Assembly (NCBI RefSeq): GCF_024502345.1
Contig: NZ_JALDNN010000001.1
Reading direction: 5' to 3' (one strand)
DNA length: 64,000 nucleotides
Origin: Escherichia coli
GTDB taxonomy: Bacteria; Pseudomonadota; Gammaproteobacteria; Enterobacterales; Enterobacteriaceae
This document shows positions 1,975 through 33,709 of this stretch, piece after piece. The position numbers and the translations under genes are program-made. Every line of letters begins with the position of its first letter. Within the stretch, counting starts at the first letter, position 1. A model generated the notes under the pieces. It saw only the letters and a list, made by a program, of their open reading frames with translations. It was not told where the DNA came from and made no database searches.

Positions 1975-3672
1975 TCAAAGCAATAACGTAGCCTGTGAGG
2001 CGACTGGGGTGCGTTGGTTAGGAATGTAAAACGCAATTTCCGTTCCTGGTTCCAGGCGGCGGATATGCAGCCCCTCGCCATACAATAACTTCACGCGATG
2101 ATGGACATTCAGCAGGCCAATTTTATTGCCCGGCATTTCATTCGCTTCGACCCGCTCAATCACCTTTGGATCGATGCCGTGCCCGGTATCCCGCACCGCA
2201 ATGCGTACCCGATTGCCGCACTCTGCAACGCTGATGGTGACAACGCCTTTACCTTTGCAAGGCTGGATACCGTGGACAATGGCATTCTCCACCAACGGCT
2301 GGATCAGCAGGCTGGGAATGCAGCAATTCACCTCTTCATCAATATCATAGATAACCGTCAGCTTGTCGCCAAAGCGGGCCTGCTCAATGGCAATATAGTC
2401 TTTAATTTGATACAGCTCTTTTTTGATATCGATTTGCTCATCGTCTTTTAATTCAATGTTATAGCGCAGATAACGCGACAGATTAAAGATTAGCTGGCGA
2501 GCAGTATCCGGATTCAGACGGATTGACGATGAAATAGCGTTCAAAGCGTTAAACAGGAAATGGGGATTAATTTTGCTTTGCAGGGCGCGAAGCTCTGCCT
2601 TATTTGCCATTTCACGTAGCTGCTCGGCGCGTGAAACCTCCAGTTGCGTGGAGATGATTTGCGACAGACCAACCGCCATTTCCTGTAATGACGAGGTTAT
2701 CTGATGCGCGTGGCAGTAGTAAATTTTCAGCGTTCCGGTCACAACGCCTTTCTCCCACAATGGGATCACCAGCATGGAATGAATCTCTGGTGTGCGGTGG
2801 GCTTCATCATTGTTTTTAATGATGATTTTTCCGTAATTCATCGCCTGACGGGTAGTCGGGCTAATGAAGTCATCGCCGTTCTGATAGTTATGTTCACCCA
2901 CGCCAACATAGGCCAGCACATGATCGGTATTAGTAATCGCCACCGCATCGGCGTGAATGTCATCGCGAATAATTTCACAAACTTTGCGTAATGACTCGCT
3001 ATTGACATGGCGAAACAGAGGTAGCGTTTTGTTGGCGATATCCAGCGCCAGCTTGGCCTGCCGCGCGGCGCTGGCCTCTTTTTCGCCCTCAACGCTTTGC
3101 ACCAGAAGCACAATAAAGCCGATACAGACGCTGCCGAGGATCATTGGAATCCCGATTTTAGAGACGATATCGATCCCCAACGCGGTAGTTGGTGCCCAGA
3201 CAATCACCAGAATCATGGTCAACGTTTCACACAACATGCCGCCGAGAATACCGACGCGCCAGCGCTGTGCTTTGGGGATTTTCAGGTTGATCCAGCCCGA
3301 TATACAACCAGCCAGAATGCTGGTGATAAAGCAGGGGATCGCCGTCACGCCGCCGATATCAATTAAATAACGATGAATACCCGCAATCACGCCGGTAATG
3401 ATGCCCACCCACGGGCCAAACAGAATCCCGCCGGACATCACCGCGATAATACGTACGTTCACCAGCGAGCCTTCTACGGGAACGCCGGACCAGGTGCTGA
3501 AGAGGGCGAACAGCGAGAAAATGGCGGTAACGGCGAGCAACTCTTTCGGTGAGTGTGCCGACTTGTGCAACAGTTCGCGAAACAGGCGGATACGGATGAG
3601 AAAGAACAGGCAGATAAGCATTAACGCTGCCCGATCGAAGACCGCCAGCAGCATGTTGAATATTTCGTGCAC
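1975..3672 (-). CDS. ypdA: Sensor histidine kinase YpdA (5TM-LytS / GAF / HATPase)
   Basis: 565 aa ORF with N-terminal multi-TM region and C-terminal histidine kinase motifs ([16 protein letters not shown]). Confidence 0.9.
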
Positions 3673-4048
3673 GGGTGACTCTGAATAAGGATTAAACCTC
3701 TATGATAGGTAACCTGAAGGCTGATGACCAGCAGGCCGTTTTTGAGGAAAAACCACAATTTTAAAAGGGGATTGATAGATAAATGGTGTATTAGCAATGC
3801 ATCTCTTGATAATGCACTTCTGGTTAGTAAATTTATTGAAATTATTATGTTAATAAAATGAGTGGTAATTTTCTTGTTAGCGCAGATAAATTTCCTGTTT
3901 TTAAAGCAGAGTTCCTCATTTAACGTCATTAATAAAAATGTTCTAAAACGCTGGACAGACAGAAATTAATCAGGCTATTTTCAAAACAGCCACCATCGTG
4001 GCAGCGTCGCTCGGACGGTCCGGGCGCTAACGTTAATCTGAGGAAATT

Positions 4049-25381: not shown

Positions 25382-26629
25382 ATGGCACTGAATATTCCAT
25401 TCAGAAATGCGTACTATCGTTTTGCATCCAGTTACTCATTTCTCTTTTTTATTTCCTGGTCGCTGTGGTGGTCGTTATACGCTATTTGGCTGAAAGGACA
25501 TCTAGGGTTGACAGGGACGGAATTAGGTACACTTTATTCGGTCAACCAGTTTACCAGCATTCTATTTATGATGTTCTACGGCATCGTTCAGGATAAACTC
25601 GGTCTGAAGAAACCGCTCATCTGGTGTATGAGTTTCATCCTGGTCTTGACCGGACCGTTTATGATTTACGTTTATGAACCGTTACTGCAAAGCAATTTTT
25701 CTGTAGGTCTAATTCTGGGGGCGCTCTTTTTTGGCCTGGGGTATCTGGCGGGATGCGGTTTGCTTGACAGCTTCACCGAAAAAATGGCGCGAAATTTTCA
25801 TTTCGAATATGGAACAGCGCGCGCCTGGGGATCTTTTGGCTATGCTATTGGCGCGTTCTTTGCCGGCATATTTTTTAGTATCAGTCCCCATATCAACTTC
25901 TGGTTGGTCTCGCTATTTGGCGCTGTATTTATGATGATCAACATGTGTTTTAAAGATAAGGATCACCAGTGCGTAGCGGCGGATGCGGGAGGGGTAAAAA
26001 AAGAGGATTTTATCGCAGTTTTCAAGGATCGAAACTTCTGGGTTTTCGTCATATTTATTGTGGGGACGTGGTCTTTCTATAACATTTTTGATCAACAACT
26101 TTTTCCTGTCTTTTATGCAGGTTTATTCGAATCACACGATGTAGGAACGCGCCTGTATGGTTATCTCAACTCATTCCAGGTGGTACTCGAAGCGCTGTGC
26201 ATGGCGATTATTCCTTTCTTTGTGAATCGGGTAGGGCCAAAAAATGCATTACTTATCGGTGTTGTGATTATGGCGTTGCGTATCCTTTCCTGCGCGCTGT
26301 TCGTTAACCCCTGGATTATTTCATTAGTGAAGCTGTTACATGCCATTGAGGTTCCACTTTGTGTCATATCCGTCTTCAAATACAGCGTGGCAAACTTTGA
26401 TAAGCGCCTGTCGTCGACGATCTTTCTGATTGGTTTTCAAATTGCCAGTTCGCTTGGGATTGTGCTGCTTTCAACGCCGACTGGGATACTCTTTGACCAC
26501 GCAGGCTACCAGACAGTTTTCTTCGCAATTTCGGGTATTGTCTGCCTGATGTTGCTATTTGGCATTTTCTTCCTGAGTAAAAAACGCGAGCAAATAGTTA
26601 TGGAAACGCCTGTACCTTCAGCAATATAG
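25382..26629 (+). CDS. cscB: Sucrose:H+ symporter CscB (MFS, oligosaccharide:H+ symporter family)
   Basis: 415 aa 12-TM ORF recognised as CscB. Confidence 0.9.
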   Translation: MALNIPFRNAYYRFASSYSFLFFISWSLWWSLYAIWLKGHLGLTGTELGTLYSVNQFTSILFMMFYGIVQDKLGLKKPLIWCMSFILVLTGPFMIYVYEPLLQSNFSVGLILGALFFGLGYLAGCGLLDSFTEKMARNFHFEYGTARAWGSFGYAIGAFFAGIFFSISPHINFWLVSLFGAVFMMINMCFKDKDHQCVAADAGGVKKEDFIAVFKDRNFWVFVIFIVGTWSFYNIFDQQLFPVFYAGLFESHDVGTRLYGYLNSFQVVLEALCMAIIPFFVNRVGPKNALLIGVVIMALRILSCALFVNPWIISLVKLLHAIEVPLCVISVFKYSVANFDKRLSSTIFLIGFQIASSLGIVLLSTPTGILFDHAGYQTVFFAISGIVCLMLLFGIFFLSKKREQIVMETPVPSAI

Positions 26630-27069: not shown

Positions 27070-27084
27070 TGGTGTCCCCTGCAG
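27070..27084. repeat. 15 nt direct repeat of the argW 3' end (TGGTGTCCCCTGCAG); candidate prophage attR core
   Basis: Exact match to the first 15 nt of the reverse-complemented argW 3' end at 38480-38494. Confidence 0.5.
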
Positions 27085-27157: not shown

Positions 27158-27358
27158 TTACCCATTGGCGCGGCTTAAGAGCTTATTTTTGAATTCACAA
27201 TGGTCACGATATAACCATCTTGCTCGCCCGTGGATAACTTTGGCTTTTGGAAGGTCTCCGGACTTAATCCGATCATAGATGAAGGTTTTACCGAAGCCAG
27301 TATCGGCCATGATGAATTTCAAATCAACCAGTGAATCAGGCTGTAGTTCGTGTTGCAT
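27158..27358 (-). CDS. torI: TorI-like excisionase / recombination directionality factor (AlpA family)
   Basis: 66 aa ORF (MQHELQPDSLVDLKFIMADTGFGKTF…), recalled as matching K-12 KplE1 TorI; sits at the prophage edge opposite intS. Confidence 0.8.
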   Translation of the reverse strand: MQHELQPDSLVDLKFIMADTGFGKTFIYDRIKSGDLPKAKVIHGRARWLYRDHCEFKNKLLSRANG

Positions 27359-27377: not shown

Positions 27378-27393
27378 GGAATCGAACCTGCAA
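27378..27393. repeat. 16 nt fragment identical to the argW T-arm (GGAATCGAACCTGCAA); not a tRNA gene
   Basis: Matches argW positions 38494-38509 (reverse-complemented strand) but flanking sequence cannot form an acceptor or T stem. Confidence 0.4.
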
Positions 27394-27493
27394 ATCAGGC
27401 AATAAAAAACCGCATTGATGCGGCGATGGTAGGTCTGGATATCATTGAGCAATGAACAGGCATCATCGAGTGTGAGGCGGTGTTATTTTATGG

Positions 27494-27838
27494 TTAGTCC
27501 TTGCGTAGCTCTCTGATTCTTCTGTAAGTCTCTGGTGCTTTGTTTCCGTGTATCTTCATTTCCGACTTCAACAGAGCAACTAGGGAATCCCATTCGTTGA
27601 GGATTCCTTTGAATGCCGGAACGCGCTTTGCAACCTTGTCGAATGAATCTCTGATTTCTGGAATCTGCTCAACAAGCGCAACGCATCGTTGGAAATCGTC
27701 TGCGTCATGGGGAGCGCCGAAGTGATGACCATAGATATTCTTTTTCAGGCCACATGCGATTGAGGCAAGAGTTGCGCTACTGATGCCGACATCGCCAGTT
27801 GATTGCCATTTCAAAACCTTCATAGCCAAATCTGACAT
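27494..27838 (-). CDS. Hypothetical prophage protein
   Basis: 114 aa ORF in the pL-driven leftward gene string; no family recognised. Confidence 0.45.
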   Translation of the reverse strand: MSDLAMKVLKWQSTGDVGISSATLASIACGLKKNIYGHHFGAPHDADDFQRCVALVEQIPEIRDSFDKVAKRVPAFKGILNEWDSLVALLKSEMKIHGNKAPETYRRIRELRKD

Positions 27839-27938
27839 TTCTTGTCTCCATAAAACAAAACTCGCCGTAGCGAGTTCAGATAAAAGAAATCCCCGCGAGT
27901 GCGAGGATTGTTATTCACCTTTTACGGCAAGTTGCAGG

Positions 27939-28232
27939 TTAGCCACGGTTAACCTCCTGAGGCGGTTCTGGTAGCGGCATCCAGTGGGTTACTTTCGATG
28001 CCGGTTCTTCCCCATCGTCAGTAACTGCCCACCATTTGTTTCTCGACCAATCGTAATACCCTTCGAAGGTATCGCACTCAGTCCAGCCGTAAGACTTACC
28101 CCAACACCAAACATACTGTTTATCGTTCGGCATTCGCTCACTACAGCTTATCCAACCAGCGTTTGTTTCGTTAGCGTCCTTAGTGTGTTCATCTGGTTTA
28201 TATGAGCGAAGCATTTCGCTTAGCGTAATCAT
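27939..28232 (-). CDS. DUF551-domain phage protein
   Basis: 97 aa ORF ending …THWMPLPEPP, typical of DUF551; first ORF downstream of pL/nutL. Confidence 0.6.
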   Translation of the reverse strand: MITLSEMLRSYKPDEHTKDANETNAGWISCSERMPNDKQYVWCWGKSYGWTECDTFEGYYDWSRNKWWAVTDDGEEPASKVTHWMPLPEPPQEVNRG

Positions 28233-28295
28233 TGCAAAGCGCCTCCGCCGAGAAGGTTAGCTTCTGCATTCACCCCAAAGTTCACTTTGGTTATT

Positions 28296-28310
28296 GCGCT
28301 TTGTCAGCGC
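28296..28310 (-). promoter_or_regulatory. Putative nutL boxB hairpin (GCGCUGACAAAGCGC on the leftward transcript)
   Basis: Perfect 5 bp stem with GACAA loop about 75 nt downstream of the pL start; resembles P22-type boxB, not lambda boxB. Confidence 0.4.
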
Positions 28311-28378
28311 CGTAGATTCATATTTGAATCGTTGTATATTCACCGCCCTGGTGAGTAGTGCGTCCTGCTGATGTGTTT

Positions 28379-28441
28379 AGTATCACCGCCAGTGGTATTT
28401 ATGTCAACACCGCTAGAGATAATTCATCACCGCAGATGGTT
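28379..28441 (-). promoter_or_regulatory. Lambda-type pL promoter with OL1, OL2, OL3 operators
   Basis: OL1 TATCACCGCCAGTGGTA (28381-28397) identical to lambda; OL2 (28405-28421) and OL3 (28425-28441) each differ from lambda at one position; -35 TTGACA and -10 GATACT on the minus strand. Confidence 0.8.
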
Positions 28442-28627
28442 ATCTGTATGTTTTTTATATGAATTTATTTTTTGCAGTGGTGCATTGTTTGGTAGGTGAG
28501 AGATCTGAACTGCTATGTTTAGTGAGTTGTATCTATTTATTTTCAAATAGATACAATTGGTTATGTGTTCTTGGGTGAGGGGGATCGTGAGGCAAAGAAA
28601 ACCCGGCTCTGTGGCCGGGAATAACAT

Positions 28628-29006
28628 TTAGGAATCAAGGTCAGGTAGCATGATTTTCTCAATCAACGTCAATGCCCTTTGGTCTCGTTCAGCAAAATAT
28701 TTAGGAGCGTACTGAGGCAGCCACACTTCGTTGAAGTATTGTTTGAAATCTGCAATATTCGTTTGGGTATAGACGTACCGGGAATGTCCGGCCATCTGGG
28801 TACTCATGGTTATATGTTGGGAATGTCTTCGGCTCAACCCCCCGGTTGTCACGGAGCCATTGCGAGAAAACCCTACCCTCTGAAATATCAGGGACCATTT
28901 TTTCTGGCAGCGTATATCCGGCCTGTTCAAGTGGCGCAACCAAGTTAAACGTCAGTTCATTAAGCATAGAAAAGTGCGTATGAGGAACTCTGCCTCGGTT
29001 TGTCAT
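28628..29006 (-). pseudogene. Two overlapping ORFs in different frames downstream of the KilA-N ORF; possible frameshifted C-terminal part of an antirepressor-like gene
   Basis: ORFs 28701-29006 and 28628-28939 overlap out of frame and directly follow the KilA-N ORF. Confidence 0.3.
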
Positions 29007-29045
29007 ATACCGCTTAAGGTGGATAGGGAGTTCGGCAGGCGCTCT

Positions 29046-29387
29046 TTAACCTGACATCCACTCACGCACCCATCTCGATACTTGCACTGCAAATTTTGGA
29101 GATAGCCACTGAGCTAAATTAATTGCGATGTCTGGATGAACCCAAGTCCCTTGATTCTCTGCTCTTCCGCCTTTAAATGATTGAATTAACTCCGATATGG
29201 GAATCCCCATATCGCGTGATAATTCATCAAAAAAATCTTGTGTTGTTTTTAGTCGTGTATAGTCAGCAAGTAGCTTCCCCGCAGACTTGCACATCGCGGT
29301 GGCATTGATGTATCCGTCTTTGGTGCGAAGATGGATGACTTCTCCATCAACTTCTCTAGCGATTAATGCAAGTTGAAATTGTGTCAT
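29046..29387 (-). CDS. KilA-N domain protein
   Basis: 113 aa ORF with KilA-N-like N-terminal domain; immediately downstream of cI. Confidence 0.55.
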   Translation of the reverse strand: MTQFQLALIAREVDGEVIHLRTKDGYINATAMCKSAGKLLADYTRLKTTQDFFDELSRDMGIPISELIQSFKGGRAENQGTWVHPDIAINLAQWLSPKFAVQVSRWVREWMSG

Positions 29388-29418
29388 AAATCATCCTATT
29401 ACGTGAAAAATAAAACAA

Positions 29419-30135
<717 letters not shown>

Positions 30136-30142
30136 TTAAATC

Positions 30143-30207
30143 TATCACCGCAAGGGATAAACTTCTAACACCGTGCGTGTTGACTATTTTACCTCTAGCG
30201 GTGATAA
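30143..30207. promoter_or_regulatory. Lambda-type OR3-OR2-OR1 operators with PR and PRM
   Basis: OR3 (30143-30159) and OR2 (30165-30181) identical to lambda; OR1 TACCTCTAGCGGTGATA (30189-30205) has one G-to-A change; PR -35 TTGACT and -10 GATAAT. Confidence 0.85.
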
Positions 30208-30232
30208 TGGTTGCCTGTACTAAGGAGGTTGT

Positions 30233-30433
30233 ATGGAACAACGCATAACCCTGAAAGATTATGCAATACGCTTTGGGCAAACCAAGACGGCTAAAGATCT
30301 CGGCGTATATCAAAGCGCGATTAACAAGGCCATTCATGCAGGCCGAAAGATTTTTTTAACTATAAACGCTGATGGAAGCGTTTATGCGGAAGAAATAAAG
30401 CCCTTCCCAAGTAACAAAAAAACAACTGCATAA
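30233..30433 (+). CDS. cro: Lambda-type Cro repressor
   Basis: 66 aa [69 protein letters not shown], near-identical to lambda Cro. Confidence 0.9.
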
Positions 30434-30440
30434 GTAACAC

Positions 30441-30486
30441 CGCTCTTTTCACAATGGACATTCGTCCTACGTCGCTGACAAAGCGA
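30441..30486 (+). promoter_or_regulatory. Putative nutR (boxA-like CGCTCTTTT and boxB-like hairpin TCGCTGACAAAGCGA)
   Basis: Position immediately downstream of cro; boxB-like stem-loop with GACAA loop at 30472-30486; spacer longer than in lambda. Confidence 0.4.
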
Positions 30487-30570
30487 GCCCCAAGATATCT
30501 GACCAACTAAGGCCATATGCGTTTCCACGCATACCTTTCAACTAACTATTCACTATTGGAAAATTAACAA

Positions 30571-30867
30571 ATGACACAAGCAAGTTATAGCAAGCCAACA
30601 CAGCGAGAAATTGATCGCGCTGAAACTGATTTACTCATCAACCTGTCAACGCTTACCCAGCGCGGTCTGGCAAAGATGATTGGCTGTCATGAATCGAAGA
30701 TAAGCAGAACGGACTGGAGATTTATTGCTTCGGTCTTGTGTGCTTTCGGAATGGCATCAGACATCAGTCCGATTAGCAGGGCTTTTAAGTATGCATTGGA
30801 TGGAATCACAAAGAAAAAATCCCCGGCTGCCACCGAGGATTCTGAGCAAATTGATATGCAATTCTGA
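30571..30867 (+). CDS. CII-like transcriptional activator
   Basis: 98 aa ORF; C-terminus KKSPAATEDSEQIDMQF parallels lambda CII KKRPAATERSEQIQMEF; conserved position after cro/nutR. Confidence 0.6.
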   Translation: MTQASYSKPTQREIDRAETDLLINLSTLTQRGLAKMIGCHESKISRTDWRFIASVLCAFGMASDISPISRAFKYALDGITKKKSPAATEDSEQIDMQF

Positions 30868-31047
30868 GGGAATTACTGGATCAATCCACAGGAGTAATTA
30901 TGACAAAACGTCGTAAGAAATACCAGGAAAAAGAAGAGATTCGACACCCTGATTCACCTGAGGGATTAGTGGTAGCCGCAGCAAATAACAGGGCGTTCGC
31001 AGAGCGCCTTGTTGGTGTTTACAGACTAGCCAAAGCAGGAGTGAAAC

Positions 31048-32193
31048 ATGGGCGTCGTTAAGTTAGCTGATTACAGGCCTCAACTGGAGGTCGTGGAGCA
31101 TCGCGTGGCAGATACCGAAGATGGTTTCATGCGCGTTGCTAACGAGATTACTCAATATCCAGACCAGATTGAATCCGTTCGTAAAGGCATGGGATTCATT
31201 GATGAAGACCAGCGTAATTCTATCGGCACCTTAGCGGCTGGCGCACGCCTTGCGTCATCGTCTCCAGAAGCAATGCAATCATGGCTGCAAAACAACGCCG
31301 GTGAGTTAGCTCGTGTTGGCGTTAATCCTCATGACGTCGCTCAGATGTACCAACAGAACCCGCGGCAGTTCGTCGAATTTGTCGATCACCTGGGGATGAA
31401 CAGTCTCGGGCCCGAAAAATACTTTGACCTACAGGATAAAATGCAGGGTCGCCAGGTTACCATGCGCGGTCAGGATCTGGATTCGCAAACCGCCGCTCGG
31501 AATCAGGCAATCACAATGCGCGGACAAGATATCCAGGCGAATTTAGGTCAGCAGCGCATTAATCTGGACGCAGAAACAAACCGCATTAACAACGAAAATA
31601 AGCGCCTTGACCGGATGCTATCAGCAGAAACTAACGACCTGAAGCGCCAGGAAATACAGAGCCGCATAGCAGCCAACAACCAGCAGTTGCAGCAGAAGCA
31701 GCAAGCGCTAAATGATGGCTACAAAGACGGCATCAACACCCTCACAACCAGCATGTTCACTCTGAACGATATCGTTAGTTCTCCTTCACTTAAGAGCATT
31801 ACAGGCTTACGTGGAGTAATCCCCAACGTTCCAGGCTCACAGGCTGCAGACACTCAGGCACGACTTGATACCTTTAAATCACAAGCATACCTGACAGCGG
31901 TTCAGGCCATGCGAGGCATGGGCGCACTTTCTGATGCCGAGGGCAAAAAGCTCGACCAGGCTGTTGGTTCGCTGCAGAACTCGCAGAGCGAGGAGTCCTT
32001 TCGTCGCAACGCTGGCGTCATCCTGAACACGCTCAACCAGAAGCGTAATGAGGCGGTTGGTAAGTACGTTCAGCAAAACGGTATCAAGCGAGTGGAAGCG
32101 CCTCAGGCTTCTATAGATTACCTGAAGCAGCACCCCGAGCTGTCAATCGACTTCATTAATCGCTACGGATATCTTCCATCTTTGGGGCAGTAA
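31048..32193 (+). CDS. Hypothetical phage protein, Gln-rich with predicted coiled coil
   Basis: 381 aa ORF immediately upstream of, and abutting, the transglycosylase gene; no family recognised. Confidence 0.5.
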   Translation: MGVVKLADYRPQLEVVEHRVADTEDGFMRVANEITQYPDQIESVRKGMGFIDEDQRNSIGTLAAGARLASSSPEAMQSWLQNNAGELARVGVNPHDVAQMYQQNPRQFVEFVDHLGMNSLGPEKYFDLQDKMQGRQVTMRGQDLDSQTAARNQAITMRGQDIQANLGQQRINLDAETNRINNENKRLDRMLSAETNDLKRQEIQSRIAANNQQLQQKQQALNDGYKDGINTLTTSMFTLNDIVSSPSLKSITGLRGVIPNVPGSQAADTQARLDTFKSQAYLTAVQAMRGMGALSDAEGKKLDQAVGSLQNSQSEESFRRNAGVILNTLNQKRNEAVGKYVQQNGIKRVEAPQASIDYLKQHPELSIDFINRYGYLPSLGQ

Positions 32194-32649
32194 ATGGCTA
32201 ATTACCGTGATTTGTTAGAGCAGGCTGGCGCACGTTACGGTGTGCCAGAAGGGTTGATGACTGCACTGGGTGCCAAGGAGTCTTCTTACAACCCTGCCGC
32301 AGTAAGCTCCGCCGGGGCTGTAGGATTGACTCAGGTCATGCCTGGGACATGGCGTGATATGGGTTATACCGATGAGCAAATGCAAAACCCCGAATATCAA
32401 GCTGACGCTGGCGCGCGCTATCTGGCAAAGATGTACCAGCAGTTTGGTAACTGGCGTGACGCTCTTCAGGCTTATCACGACGGTCCCGGCAACGTTATGA
32501 AGGCAAAGCGTGGTGAATATACGCCAGGACCTGAAGGCCGCGGTTACGTTGATGATCGCTTTGCTCAATGGGCGGGTGACCCGGTGACAGACTCAACAGT
32601 CGAACAGCGCGCCACCTCTGCAAAGGTACCTTTGCTGATTGTTATCTGA
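32194..32649 (+). CDS. Phage lytic transglycosylase (SLT domain)
   Basis: 151 aa ORF with an SLT-domain-like catalytic region (…GAKESSYNPAAVSSAGAVGLTQVMPGTW…). Confidence 0.65.
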   Translation: MANYRDLLEQAGARYGVPEGLMTALGAKESSYNPAAVSSAGAVGLTQVMPGTWRDMGYTDEQMQNPEYQADAGARYLAKMYQQFGNWRDALQAYHDGPGNVMKAKRGEYTPGPEGRGYVDDRFAQWAGDPVTDSTVEQRATSAKVPLLIVI

Positions 32650-33127
32650 TGTTACTGCTACTGTTGCATGTTACCGTGTTTCCAAATCCTGAATTGCAGT
32701 TTGTATATGTGTCAACGCGTGTTGGGTAAGGTTGAGTTATAACAGGCTGGCGCGCTTTTTGCTCGATCGCTTGCATTGTGTTTACAGCCTGATAATTCAA
32801 TAAAGCCTGCTGGAATGCTTGGCTTTGTGCTATTTGTTGGGCTTGTTCTTGGCTTTGTAATTGAACATAAAGATTCTGAAGCTCAAGTCTTGCCTGTGCG
32901 TCACTTATCTTGCCTTCATCGACACCTTGCCCGAGCATCTTTGCAGCAAGGACATACAGCTTAGGTGTTGGTGCTGATGCCATGCGTGAGTCGTTCTTCA
33001 CACTGGCATCAAGGCAATTAGCCATATCGCTAAGCTTTTGATAGCGTTGTTCGCAACTTGCTTGATAGTCACTTACTTTTGCGCATCCAACCAGCAGAAG
33101 CGGGATAATTAACAGTGATTTTTTCAT
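32642..33127 (-). CDS. Phage-encoded lipoprotein (candidate lysogenic-conversion or exclusion moron)
   Basis: Lipobox LLVGC after the signal peptide MKKSLLIIPLLLVGC; start placed at the internal Met of ORF 32642-33163. Confidence 0.5.
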   Translation of the reverse strand: MKKSLLIIPLLLVGCAKVSDYQASCEQRYQKLSDMANCLDASVKNDSRMASAPTPKLYVLAAKMLGQGVDEGKISDAQARLELQNLYVQLQSQEQAQQIAQSQAFQQALLNYQAVNTMQAIEQKARQPVITQPYPTRVDTYTNCNSGFGNTVTCNSSSNIR

Positions 33128-33197
33128 ATGGTTAACTCTCCTTAGTTTTTCACAGGATATCATGAAGGCTATGCCATTTTAGCCGGAAACTAGATTT

Positions 33198-33464
33198 CTA
33201 TGTTTCCTTTTTATTATTGCTATACATGGTCTTAAGCGTTTCAAATACCATTTTCTTAACCATATCAGATTGTTGTTCTGCCATACGCTCTGCATCATCA
33301 ATGTAAACGGATGCAGAGCTTTGTTTAGCCAACGATTCTTCAATCGCTGCAATTATCTCTGAGTTCAGAGATCTGTTATTCATCTTCGCACGCTGCTTAA
33401 TTTTCGCGTGGAGTTCATGCGGAAGTCTCAAGTGAAACTGCGCCTCATCGTATTTGCTGTACAT
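33198..33464 (-). CDS. mnt: Mnt-like ribbon-helix-helix repressor
   Basis: C-terminal …DDAERMAEQQSDMVKKMVFETLK… parallels P22 Mnt …NDAERLADEQSELVKKMVFDTLK…; start placed at the internal Met (about 88 aa). Confidence 0.6.
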   Translation of the reverse strand: MYSKYDEAQFHLRLPHELHAKIKQRAKMNNRSLNSEIIAAIEESLAKQSSASVYIDDAERMAEQQSDMVKKMVFETLKTMYSNNKKET

Positions 33465-33709
33465 CCTTGATGCCTCACCAGTTGGGTGGAATGGCATCGT
33501 AACCTACTGGATAAATACTCAATAGTACCATTTCGGTATGCAATCACATCATGGTTGCATCATATCATCGTCTGGAGCAATGAAATGTCAGATATCACCG
33601 CAAATGTTGTGGTAAGCATGCCTTCGCAACTCTTCACTATGGCGCGTTCTTTTAAAGCGGTTGCCAATGGTAAAATTTATATCGGTAAAATTGACACTGA
33701 CCCGGTAAA

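What the first reader, a model, noticed from the sequence alone, without database searches (positions are those of the whole stretch)
28628..29387. KilA-N ORF followed by two out-of-frame overlapping ORFs: likely a decaying antirepressor-like gene in the rexAB position
A 113 aa KilA-N ORF lies directly downstream of cI and is followed by ORFs in two other frames (28701-29006, 28628-28939). KilA-N proteins are usually larger with a C-terminal domain, so this looks like one gene broken by frameshifts, occupying the slot where lambda carries rexA/rexB.
Basis: inference. Interest (0 to 1): 0.3.

Follow-up and report, generated by a model that had tools for sequence, protein, structure and literature searches.

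The report
Broken BstA phage-defence gene after cI
The three ORFs are the pieces of one 253-codon prophage gene of the BstA abortive-infection (anti-phage defence) family, inactivated by a premature stop codon and a 2-base deletion, sitting behind the repressor gene of a decayed prophage: an ordinary pseudogene of a known family, not an antirepressor.

Summary
Observation confirmed with one correction. On the minus strand, right after a lambda-type cI (29419-30132), lies a 113-aa KilA-N ORF (29046-29387). ORF 28701-29006 is in the same frame, separated only by a TAA. Only ORF 28628-28939 is in another frame.

Intact 253-aa alleles (phage PhiR5_2; E. coli D5, ML35, O111 14614) differ from the window at five nucleotides. 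Two are disabling: GAA>TAA (E114*, window 29048) and a 2-bp deletion at 28755/28756.

The intact protein is KilA-N plus BstA_C. It matches PHROG 6287 'BstA abortive infection system' (E=1.8e-82), PADLOC BstA, and the C-terminal half of experimentally studied BstA of Salmonella phage BTP1 (29% identity, E=5e-15). Its place, co-transcribed behind the repressor and ending at a terminator, is the typical BstA position and the rexAB slot. 'Antirepressor-like' is not supported.

The lesions are real: all 20 other copies of this allele that I read carry both. The host element is an ~11-kb prophage remnant at argW lacking N, replication, lysis and head genes.

Side note: the same E114* stop, in the predicted inter-domain linker, occurs on three allele backgrounds and accounts for 9 of 10 disrupted alleles in a viral-contig sample. 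Low novelty, low-to-moderate interest.

The parts
28628..29387 (-). Whole bstA-family pseudogene (760 nt; the intact allele is 762 nt, 253 codons plus stop)
   Evidence: It differs from the intact D5 and PhiR5_2 alleles at 5 nucleotide positions within the CDS. The three ORFs are colinear on phrog_6287 'BstA'.
29046..29387 (-). Retained ORF: codons 1-113 (complete KilA-N DNA-binding domain) plus a premature TAA
29046..29048 (-). Lesion 1: nonsense codon TAA replacing GAA (E114*). The G>T change on the coding strand is at window 29048.
   Evidence: Shown by alignment to PhiR5_2, D5, ML35 and O111 14614. It falls in the low-confidence inter-domain linker; residues 115-117 have pLDDT below 50.
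28757..29045 (-). Codons 115-211 of the original frame: the linker and the first two-thirds of the BstA_C domain, now untranslated or only weakly re-initiated (ORF 28701-29006 starts at Met128)
   Evidence: Same frame as the KilA-N ORF. The 101-aa ORF hits phrog_6287 positions 164-253, E=6.6e-30.
28755..28756 (-). Lesion 2: site of a 2-bp deletion (TC or CT of ...GAATA[TC]TTGCAG...; intact nt 633-634, codons 211/212)
   Evidence: The deletion is present in all 20 other window-type copies read: 1008S19, strain 81, L015-L024, L077-L083 and L086.
28628..28755 (-). Codons 212-253 plus the stop of the original gene, now out of frame. This is the last three helices of BstA_C, with invariant F215 and Y231 and nearly invariant D214, H218, F219, W223, F232 and R235. 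It also carries C>T at 28738 (H218Y in the original frame).
   Evidence: Residues 53-102 of ORF 28628-28939 hit phrog_6287 positions 245-301. Conservation is, helices.
29354..29418 (-). cI-bstA spacer with the ribosome-binding site (AGGA, 8 nt before the ATG) and the first 34 nt of the CDS. This is the zone positionally equivalent to the 63-bp aba self-immunity DNA element of BTP1. It contains the window-specific synonymous G>A at 29379 (nt 9).
   Evidence: The position is inferred from PMC8585504. No CCCGCC-type terminal repeat was found here. aba function was not demonstrated.
28602..28619 (-). Intrinsic terminator ending the cI-bstA transcription unit (t_imm equivalent)
   Evidence: CCCGGCCACAGAGCCGGG followed by TTTTCTTT. 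The segment is conserved at up to 97% in other lambdoid immunity regions, where it is annotated as a terminator.
29419..30132 (-). Intact lambda-type cI repressor (237 aa), the upstream gene of the operon
   Evidence: Annotated as LexA-family/cI in relatives. Precomputed HTH_3 and Peptidase_S24 hits.
27394..38479 (.). Prophage remnant that hosts the pseudogene. It runs from an argW-fragment scar (27378-27393) to argW (38480-38554). It contains an integrase, a truncated tailspike, an IS3-family element, an SLT gene, an N-terminally truncated P22-type injection protein abutting cII, cro, cI, the bstA pseudogene, pL, and DUF551 where N should be.

Best explanation
Window 28628-29387 (minus strand) is a pseudogene of a BstA-family prophage defence gene.

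The ancestral gene encoded a 253-aa protein with two domains joined by a flexible linker: an N-terminal KilA-N (APSES-like) DNA-binding domain and a C-terminal BstA_C domain. It was transcribed with cI from the repressor promoter and ended at the immunity terminator.

By homology with BstA of Salmonella phage BTP1 (Owen et al. 2021), such a protein is made in the lysogen. It gathers at replicating DNA of an infecting phage, blocks that replication and aborts the infection. A short DNA element at the 5' end of the locus (aba) exempts the prophage's own DNA.

In this window the gene is dead as a defence gene:
- A G>T change makes codon 114, in the inter-domain linker, a TAA stop.
- A 2-bp deletion at codons 211/212 throws the last 42 conserved residues of BstA_C out of frame.

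What remains is a translatable 113-aa KilA-N-only ORF and the 5' DNA.

Shown here: the lesions, the one-gene origin, family membership by sequence, the operon layout, the decayed prophage and the spread of the allele. Inferred from the family: the defence mechanism, and loss of function after truncation.
For: 1. One gene. ORF1 and ORF2 share a frame across a single TAA. The window differs from the intact 762-nt alleles of D5 and PhiR5_2 at 5 nucleotide positions: nt9 G>A (synonymous), nt340 G>T (E114*), deletion of nt633-634, and nt652 C>T. The three ORFs map colinearly on phrog_6287.
2. Family. The intact protein hits phrog_6287 'BstA abortive infection system, replication inhibitor' over its full length, E=1.8e-82. 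PADLOC BstA gives E=2.5e-20 on residues 120-237. BLASTP to BTP1 BstA (ST313-td, 307 aa) gives 29% identity over residues 133-251, E=5e-15. Precomputed Pfam hits are KilA-N plus PF26567 BstA_C on homologues. 2748 clusters match at E<=1e-5, and nearly all of the 120 best listed are about 250 aa with both domains.
3. Position. The gene sits directly downstream of the repressor, co-oriented, with no terminator in between and a terminator after it. BTP1 has the same layout, as does every intact relative fetched. Owen et al. describe this as the typical architecture and note that it is the rexAB site.
4. Real lesions. Both occur in all 20 other copies of this allele that I read, from NCBI genome assemblies, ENA metagenome scaffolds and IMG/VR viral contigs. 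Neither is a homopolymer change.
5. Functional loss. The deleted-frame segment holds invariant and nearly invariant residues and three helices of a confidently modelled domain (pLDDT 92.3). Two stop codons placed early in bstA abolish defence in BTP1.
6. Decay context. The element at argW lacks N, O/P, lysis and head genes and carries an IS3-family element and truncated structural genes.
Against: - No member of this 253-aa subfamily (canonical KilA-N; only about 25% overall identity to BTP1 BstA) has, to my knowledge, been tested for defence. The three tested BstA proteins are mutually 40-48% identical and belong to the roughly 300-aa group. Function is therefore inferred from domain homology and synteny.
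- The N-terminal halves do not align significantly by BLASTP.
- No aba element can be recognised by sequence.
- The 113-aa KilA-N ORF is intact, carries only a synonymous private change, and is very widespread. I cannot exclude that it retains some activity, in which case 'pseudogene' would describe only the defence function.
Confidence: 0.92

Rival explanations
1. Truncation with retained function. The E114* stop is a selected 'disarmed' allele, not mere decay. It removes the costly abortive-infection domain while keeping a stand-alone KilA-N DNA-binding protein and the 5' aba-equivalent DNA. A phage carrying it could still evade cognate BstA in other lysogens, or the KilA-N protein could act as a dominant-negative or regulator.
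For: - The stop lies exactly in the disordered linker after a complete KilA-N domain.
- E114* occurs on three allele backgrounds. Each is 2-4 substitutions from a different intact haplotype and 20-24 substitutions from the other stop alleles.
- H6-type differs from its nearest intact relative only at nt 360-414, next to the stop, which is a recombination-patch signature.
- Window GGT-TAA versus GGC-TAA needs either a second origin or a tract boundary exactly between nt 339 and 340.
- E114* accounts for 9 of 10 disrupted alleles among 41 close relatives in IMG/VR. Its exact product is in 1969 blocks, whereas other truncations are seen on 1-86 contigs.
- It is carried by flanks that look like complete prophages (L016, L021).
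- Natural stand-alone KilA-N proteins 55-65% identical to this domain exist on long contigs.
- aba acts as DNA and survives stop codons in bstA.
Against: - In the more abundant 257-aa sister type the equivalent 113-aa truncation is absent from about 15 billion proteins. All 16 IMG/VR copies of that type are intact.
- Abundance could reflect hitch-hiking with the lambda-immunity module or with successful host clones.
- The numbers of private substitutions are too small for a selection test.
- No activity of an isolated BstA KilA-N domain is known.
- Coincidence is not negligible: roughly 1 in 109 for the same nonsense site, or about 1 in 70 for the tract boundary (my estimate from the marker spacing).
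Confidence: 0.1
2. Decaying antirepressor-like gene: a KilA-N/Ant-type antirepressor or transcription regulator that has been broken.
For: KilA-N domains do occur in antirepressor and Bro/KilA proteins. phrog_129 'transcriptional regulator' matches the N-terminal domain, E=8e-24.
Against: - No ANT, KilA-C or Bro domain was found in the intact protein.
- The C-terminal domain is BstA_C.
- The full-length best family is BstA, by 58 orders of magnitude over phrog_129.
- An antirepressor co-transcribed constitutively with its own repressor would be self-defeating (my inference).
Confidence: 0.03
3. Functional split or recoded gene: the window still makes active BstA, either as two polypeptides (KilA-N plus a separately initiated BstA_C) or by stop-codon readthrough plus programmed frameshifting.
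For: Alleles with E114* only (E. coli H6, Klebsiella L011-L014) keep an otherwise intact C-terminal ORF of 113-126 aa that gene callers annotate as BstA_C. Owen et al. saw homologues with only the N-terminal or only the C-terminal half.
Against: - In the window the C-terminal ORF is itself frameshifted, and 42 conserved residues are lost.
- TAA followed by A is not a readthrough context that I recognise, and I saw no slippery heptamer at ...CGAATATTGCAG... (my reading of the sequence).
- Intact one-ORF alleles are the norm.
- Met128 has only a weak Shine-Dalgarno sequence (my reading of the sequence).
Confidence: 0.02
4. Assembly or sequencing artefact in an intact gene.
For: Strain 81 shows extra indels in a G-run and in the terminator, and many 'frameshifted' annotations nearby, typical of error-prone assemblies.
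Against: The two window lesions are a substitution and a non-homopolymer 2-bp deletion. Both are present in all 20 other copies of this allele that I read, from unrelated projects and platforms.
Confidence: 0.01

Closest known systems
BstA abortive-infection protein with its aba self-immunity element (Salmonella phage BTP1 bstA/ST313-td; Owen et al. 2021, PMC8585504)
   Same: - Two-domain layout: a KilA-N-type N-terminal domain plus BstA_C.
- C-terminal domain homology (29% identity, E=5e-15; PADLOC BstA; PHROG 6287).
- The gene lies immediately downstream of the prophage repressor, is co-oriented, and is followed by a terminator and then pL/N.
- The host is a lambdoid/P22-like prophage at a tRNA-Arg site. 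Hochhauser et al. 2023 reported this site for all ten BstA-carrying prophages they found within E. coli hotspots.
   Different: - The window copy is inactivated (E114* plus a 2-bp deletion).
- Even the intact allele is a distant subfamily: 253 aa versus 307 aa, about 25% overall identity, and a canonical Pfam KilA-N (E about 1e-27) instead of a KilA-N-like domain found only by remote-homology methods.
- No CCCGCC-type aba repeats are present at the 5' end.
- Neither defence nor aba has been shown for this subfamily.
Intact orthologue WP_000191544.1 (253 aa; E. coli D5, ML35, O111:NM 14614; phage PhiR5_2 XSB41358.1)
   Same: 99.4% nucleotide identity over the 861-nt region searched; the coding sequences differ at only 5 nucleotide positions. 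Same cI-cro-cII immunity module, same spacer, RBS and terminator.
   Different: It has GAA at codon 114 and the TC at nt 633-634, so it is a single ORF. In D5 and O111:NM 14614 an N gene is annotated just beyond it, as in phage PhiR5_2.
Lambda rexA/rexB
   Same: Same genomic slot (between cI and the immunity terminator/pL), co-transcribed with cI in the lysogen, and an abortive-infection type of defence.
   Different: No sequence relationship. RexAB is a two-protein sensor plus membrane-channel system. BstA is a single DNA-associated protein that blocks phage DNA replication.
KilA-N / APSES DNA-binding domain proteins (phage P1 KilA, Bro-N/KilA-N fusions, yeast Mbp1)

Membership tests
BstA prophage abortive-infection family | [quoted passage not shown] | tested here: met
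   [not shown]
BstA prophage abortive-infection family | C-terminal BstA_C domain homologous to that of BTP1 BstA | tested here: met
   For the intact allele: BLASTP to BTP1 BstA E=5e-15, PADLOC BstA E=2.5e-20, and precomputed PF26567. The window's own fragments hit phrog_6287 at E=6.6e-30 and 4.4e-9. The local Pfam copy gave no hit to the C-terminal region, probably because it predates PF26567.
BstA prophage abortive-infection family | Located directly downstream of, and co-oriented with, the prophage repressor gene | tested here: met
   A 31-nt gap after cI, no terminator between them, and a terminator after the gene. BTP1 and all intact relatives fetched have the same layout.
BstA prophage abortive-infection family | Uninterrupted reading frame encoding both domains on one polypeptide | tested here: not met
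   TAA at codon 114 and a 2-bp deletion at codons 211/212. The window holds a pseudogene of the family, not a working member.
BstA prophage abortive-infection family | Cognate aba DNA element overlapping the 5' end of the locus | tested here: inconclusive
   aba elements are homologue-specific and only the BTP1 one is mapped. No terminal direct repeat comparable to CCCGCC...CCCGCC was found in 29300-29450, only short chance-level repeats.
BstA prophage abortive-infection family | Confers abortive-infection resistance by blocking phage DNA replication | not testable with these tools
   This needs plaque, replication and survival assays. No experimental report for this 253-aa subfamily was found.
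Antirepressor / KilA-type proteins (KilA-N + ANT/KilA-C or Bro-C) | C-terminal ANT/KilA-C (PF03374) or Bro-type domain | tested here: not met
   A Pfam scan of the intact 253-aa and 257-aa proteins returns KilA-N as the only significant family (a sub-threshold RHH_3 match aside), up to E=1.
RexAB exclusion system | RexA/RexB homologous proteins | tested here: not met
   No Rex family hit in Pfam, PHROGs, PADLOC or NCBIfam. Only the genomic position is shared.

The most novel reading that the evidence does not exclude
The E114* stop is not random decay. It would be a recurrently arising or recombinationally spreading 'disarmed' bstA allele cut exactly at the inter-domain linker. Such an allele removes the abortive-infection effector while keeping a stand-alone KilA-N protein and the 5' aba-equivalent DNA. 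A temperate phage carrying it would avoid the cost and self-targeting risk of BstA yet stay immune to cognate BstA in rival lysogens. A related possibility is that loss of BstA was selected after the nt9 G>A change damaged aba.
Probability: 0.1. Interest if true: 0.55.

Novelty: already known. Interest (0 to 1): 0.25.

Why it matters
For annotation, this locus should be labelled a bstA (KilA-N/BstA_C) pseudogene, not a 'KilA-N domain protein' plus hypothetical ORFs, and not an antirepressor. A strain carrying it should not be credited with a BstA defence system.

More broadly, it is a clean example of a prophage defence gene in the cI-pL 'moron' slot being lost. The population data point to a testable question: why one particular null allele, a stop in the linker between the DNA-binding and effector domains, dominates the disrupted copies and sits on several allele backgrounds. 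If that reflects selection, it would bear on the cost of prophage-borne abortive infection and on how the aba self-immunity element evolves.

Tried and rejected
- Pfam on the two downstream ORFs and on the intact protein found nothing for the C-terminal half. The domain was identified only through PHROGs, PADLOC and precomputed PF26567. NCBIfam gave nothing.
- I looked for an aba-like element (terminal direct repeats, dyads) at the 5' end and found only 6-7-nt chance-level repeats. I do not claim an aba.
- A protein search with the 113-aa fragment returned only short KilA-N proteins (under 200 aa) and did not help with the truncation question.
- I looked for an intermediate allele, E114* without the deletion on the window (D5-type) background. 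The D5-type C-terminal ORF appears as a separately called gene on 15-82 contigs (one search does not say which row is which query). By adjacent accession numbers, one of these rows pairs with a 93-aa N-terminal fragment. All 20 other window-type E114* copies read carry the deletion. No intermediate was found, so the order of the two lesions is unresolved.
- I looked for the equivalent truncation in the 257-aa sister type. It is absent.
- Literature after 2021 on the BstA mechanism or KilA-N: nothing relevant in the searchable library, apart from the tRNA-Arg hotspot note.
- Plus-strand ORFs inside the region (for example 28679-28948, 89 aa) have no family hit and are antisense to a conserved gene, so I treat them as spurious.

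Full report
**1. What is in the sequence**

On the minus strand, a 237-aa lambda-type cI (29419-30132) is followed after 31 nt by ATG 29387, with an AGGA ribosome-binding site. That ATG opens a 113-aa ORF (29046-29387), which is a complete KilA-N domain (Pfam PF04383, E=1.7e-27, residues 13-112).

ORF 28701-29006 is in the same reading frame. Reading through from 29387 gives ...WMSG*RAPAELPIHLKRYMTNRG..., that is, one TAA (29046-29048) and no frame change. ORF 28628-28939 is in a different frame, and its C-terminal 50 residues continue the protein.

An intrinsic terminator follows at 28619-28602. pL (TTGACA-17-GATACT) is at 28407-28379 and pR is at 30180-30208. The unit is therefore PRM-cI-gene-terminator, in the slot where lambda has rexAB.

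**2. It is one gene, and the lesions can be named**

BLAST against phage and complete E. coli genome collections finds intact versions:
- Escherichia phage PhiR5_2 carries a 762-nt CDS directly after cI.
- E. coli D5, O111:NM 14614 and ML35 carry the identical 253-aa protein, WP_000191544.1.

Within the CDS the window differs from these at only five nucleotide positions:

| Position in intact CDS | Window coordinate | Change | Effect |
|---|---|---|---|
| nt 9 | 29379 | G>A | synonymous |
| nt 340 | 29048 | G>T | GAA>TAA, E114* |
| nt 633-634 | between 28756 and 28755 | loss of TC (or CT) in GAATA[TC]TTGCAG | frameshift at codons 211/212 |
| nt 652 | 28738 | C>T | H218Y in the old frame |

As a direct frameshift-tolerant test, the three window ORFs hit consecutive parts of one PHROG profile: positions 6-121, 164-253 and 245-301.

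The lesions are not assembly errors. Neither is a homopolymer change. Both are present in every other copy of this allele that I read:
- E. coli 1008S19 (100% identical) and strain 81.
- Ten further genome and metagenome contigs (L015-L024).
- Eight IMG/VR viral contigs (L077-L083, L086).

**3. What the gene is**

The intact protein gives these matches:
- PHROG 6287 'BstA abortive infection system, replication inhibitor' over its full length, E=1.8e-82.
- The PADLOC BstA model on residues 120-237, E=2.5e-20.
- The C-terminal half of BstA (ST313-td) of Salmonella phage BTP1: 29% identity over residues 133-251, E=5e-15.

Precomputed Pfam annotation of homologues is KilA-N plus PF26567 BstA_C. 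RefSeq uses the name 'BstA C-terminal domain-containing protein' for a gene under one E. coli match to the wider region.

The family is large. 2748 clusters match at E<=1e-5, and nearly all of the 120 best listed are about 250 aa with both domains, from Enterobacterales, Vibrio, Shewanella, Neisseria, Paraburkholderia and Rhizobium among others.

No ANT, KilA-C or Bro domain is present, so 'antirepressor-like' is not supported.

Owen et al. 2021 (PMC8585504) established the following for BstA:
- It is made in lysogens and co-localises with replicating DNA of an infecting phage.
- It blocks that replication and aborts the infection.
- The gene typically lies just downstream of the prophage repressor. 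They point out that this is the rexAB site.
- A 63-bp DNA element (aba) spanning the 5' end of the locus exempts the prophage itself. It acts as DNA and is specific to each BstA variant.

Hochhauser et al. 2023 found that the BstA-carrying lambda-like prophages of E. coli within their hotspots all sat at a tRNA-Arg hotspot. The window's element is at argW, tRNA-Arg(CCU), 38480-38554.

**4. Structure and the position of the lesions**

An AlphaFold2 model of the intact allele (33-sequence alignment, mean pLDDT 87.5) shows two domains joined by a low-confidence linker at about residues 112-121.

E114* falls in the linker, immediately after the complete KilA-N domain. The 2-bp deletion removes the last three helices (residues 212-253). 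These carry invariant F215 and Y231 and nearly invariant D214, H218, F219, W223, F232 and R235.

I infer that the effector half is destroyed. In BTP1, stop codons placed early in bstA abolish defence while leaving aba immunity.

**5. Context: a decayed prophage**

Between an argW-fragment scar (27378-27393; a second scar is at 27070-27084) and argW lies about 11 kb containing, in order from argW:
- an integrase (37161-38354);
- a tailspike lacking the start of its head-binding domain (35086-37026);
- an IS3-family element (33198-34643);
- an SLT transglycosylase (32194-32649);
- a P22-type injection protein lacking its N-terminus (31048-32193), abutting cII;
- cro, cI, the bstA pseudogene and pL;
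- DUF551 in the place of N.

Replication, nin, lysis and head genes are absent. 'Decaying' is apt for the whole element.

**6. Population picture (beyond the finding)**

The exact 113-aa product is recorded in 1969 blocks of the public collection (at least 1000 contigs). The intact 253-aa protein is on 924 contigs. The flanks of the broken allele vary. Some look like complete prophages, with N, cIII, kil, recombination and DnaB genes (L016, L021). Others are remnants like the window (L019 has the same cscB-side context).

Among 41 close alleles in IMG/VR:

| Class | Count |
|---|---|
| Intact | 31 |
| Window-type double lesion | 8 |
| E114* alone | 1 |
| Other stop (codon 177) | 1 |

All 16 copies of the 257-aa sister type (86% aa identity) are intact. 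The equivalent 113-aa truncation of that type is absent from the 15-billion-protein collection.

E114* occurs on three backgrounds:

| Background | Codons 113-114 | Other lesion | Nearest intact haplotype |
|---|---|---|---|
| Window type | GGT TAA | 2-bp deletion | D5 (2 substitutions) |
| E. coli H6 type, behind an XRE repressor | GGC TAA | none | L043 (4 substitutions) |
| Klebsiella type, L011-L014, in full-looking prophages | GGC TAA | none | L044/L053 (4 substitutions) |

The three stop alleles are 20-24 substitutions apart from each other.

H6 differs from its nearest intact relative only at nt 360-414, where it looks like the Klebsiella type. That is a recombination patch that probably brought the TAA with it.

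The window's GGT-TAA against GGC-TAA violates the four-gamete rule at adjacent nucleotides. It requires either an independent G>T or a conversion tract ending exactly between nt 339 and 340. With 109 possible single-step nonsense mutations in the gene, and about 70 positions available for a tract end (my estimate from the marker spacing), both are roughly 1% coincidences. I cannot choose between them.

Other truncated products (69, 81, 93, 124, 144 and 175-176 aa) also occur, so the gene is lost repeatedly, but they are much rarer.

This pattern is the basis of the 'novel case'. It is suggestive, not demonstrated.

**7. Verdict**

The finding is a correctly spotted broken gene. Its identity is a BstA-family abortive-infection defence gene, not an antirepressor. 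The lesions are a nonsense codon and a 2-bp deletion. It lies in a prophage remnant at argW.

The family, its position after the repressor and its rexAB-slot analogy are published, so novelty is low. The intact 253-aa subfamily is only distantly related to the tested BstA proteins, so its function rests on homology and synteny.

The recurrence and spread of the linker stop codon is the only feature that might repay further work.

Noticed in passing
window 29046-29049; L009:2530-3294; L011:4001-4765; L056: The same E114* (TAA) stop at the KilA-N/BstA_C linker occurs on three allele backgrounds: window GGT-TAA, and E. coli H6 type and Klebsiella type GGC-TAA. Each is 2-4 substitutions from a different intact haplotype. 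H6 differs from its nearest intact relative only at nt 360-414, beside the stop, which looks like a recombination patch. The E114*-only alleles keep an otherwise intact C-terminal ORF.
   Followed up: partly
window 29049-29387 (product P0001); L015-L024, L077-L083, L086: The exact 113-aa truncated product is indexed in 1969 blocks (at least 1000 contigs), comparable to the intact protein (924 contigs). All 20 other window-type copies I read also carry the 2-bp deletion. The flanks range from complete-looking prophages to remnants, so the dead allele travels with the lambda-type cI-cro-cII module.
   Followed up: partly
window 27070-27084, 27378-27393, 38480-38554: Two different fragments of the argW 3' end (TGGTGTCCCCTGCAG and GGAATCGAACCTGCAA) are repeated about 11 kb from argW. 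An AlpA/excisionase-like ORF (27158-27358) lies between them. This suggests scars of two successive integrations at argW, next to the csc sucrose genes (cscB 25382-26629).
   Followed up: partly
window 27939-28407 and 30867-32193: The antiterminator gene N is missing, and a DUF551 gene follows the pL leader. cII is followed, after a 53-aa ORF, by an N-terminally truncated P22-type injection-protein gene. These are deletion joints that removed the early-left and replication-to-head regions. An IS3-family element sits at 33198-34643, and the tailspike (35086-37026) lacks the start of its head-binding domain.
   Followed up: partly
window 29379 (nt 9 of the CDS): The only private change in the retained KilA-N ORF is a synonymous G>A at nt 9. 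It lies inside the zone positionally equivalent to the BTP1 aba element (-29 to +34). Whether it affects self-immunity is unknown.
   Followed up: no
[not shown]
   Followed up: partly
Pfam scans of window 28628-29006 and of the intact protein: The local Pfam-A copy returns nothing for the C-terminal half, while precomputed annotations list PF26567 BstA_C. Apparently the local copy predates that model, so a '0 families' result here was a library-date artefact.
   Followed up: yes
L002 (E. coli strain 81, NZ_CP088131.1) 3001-3857: This assembly has the window's two lesions plus a G6>G5 change, a CC>TA change and a 3-bp loss in the terminator. Several neighbouring genes are annotated as frameshifted (cI, transposase, DNA transfer protein). 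These are probably assembly errors layered on the real lesions.
   Followed up: no
protein cluster of the 113-aa product and L055: Other truncated versions of the same gene exist: 69 aa on 86 Klebsiella contigs; 81, 93, 124, 144 and 175-176 aa on 1-9 contigs each; and a stop at codon 177 in L055. The gene is therefore inactivated repeatedly in Enterobacteriaceae.
   Followed up: no
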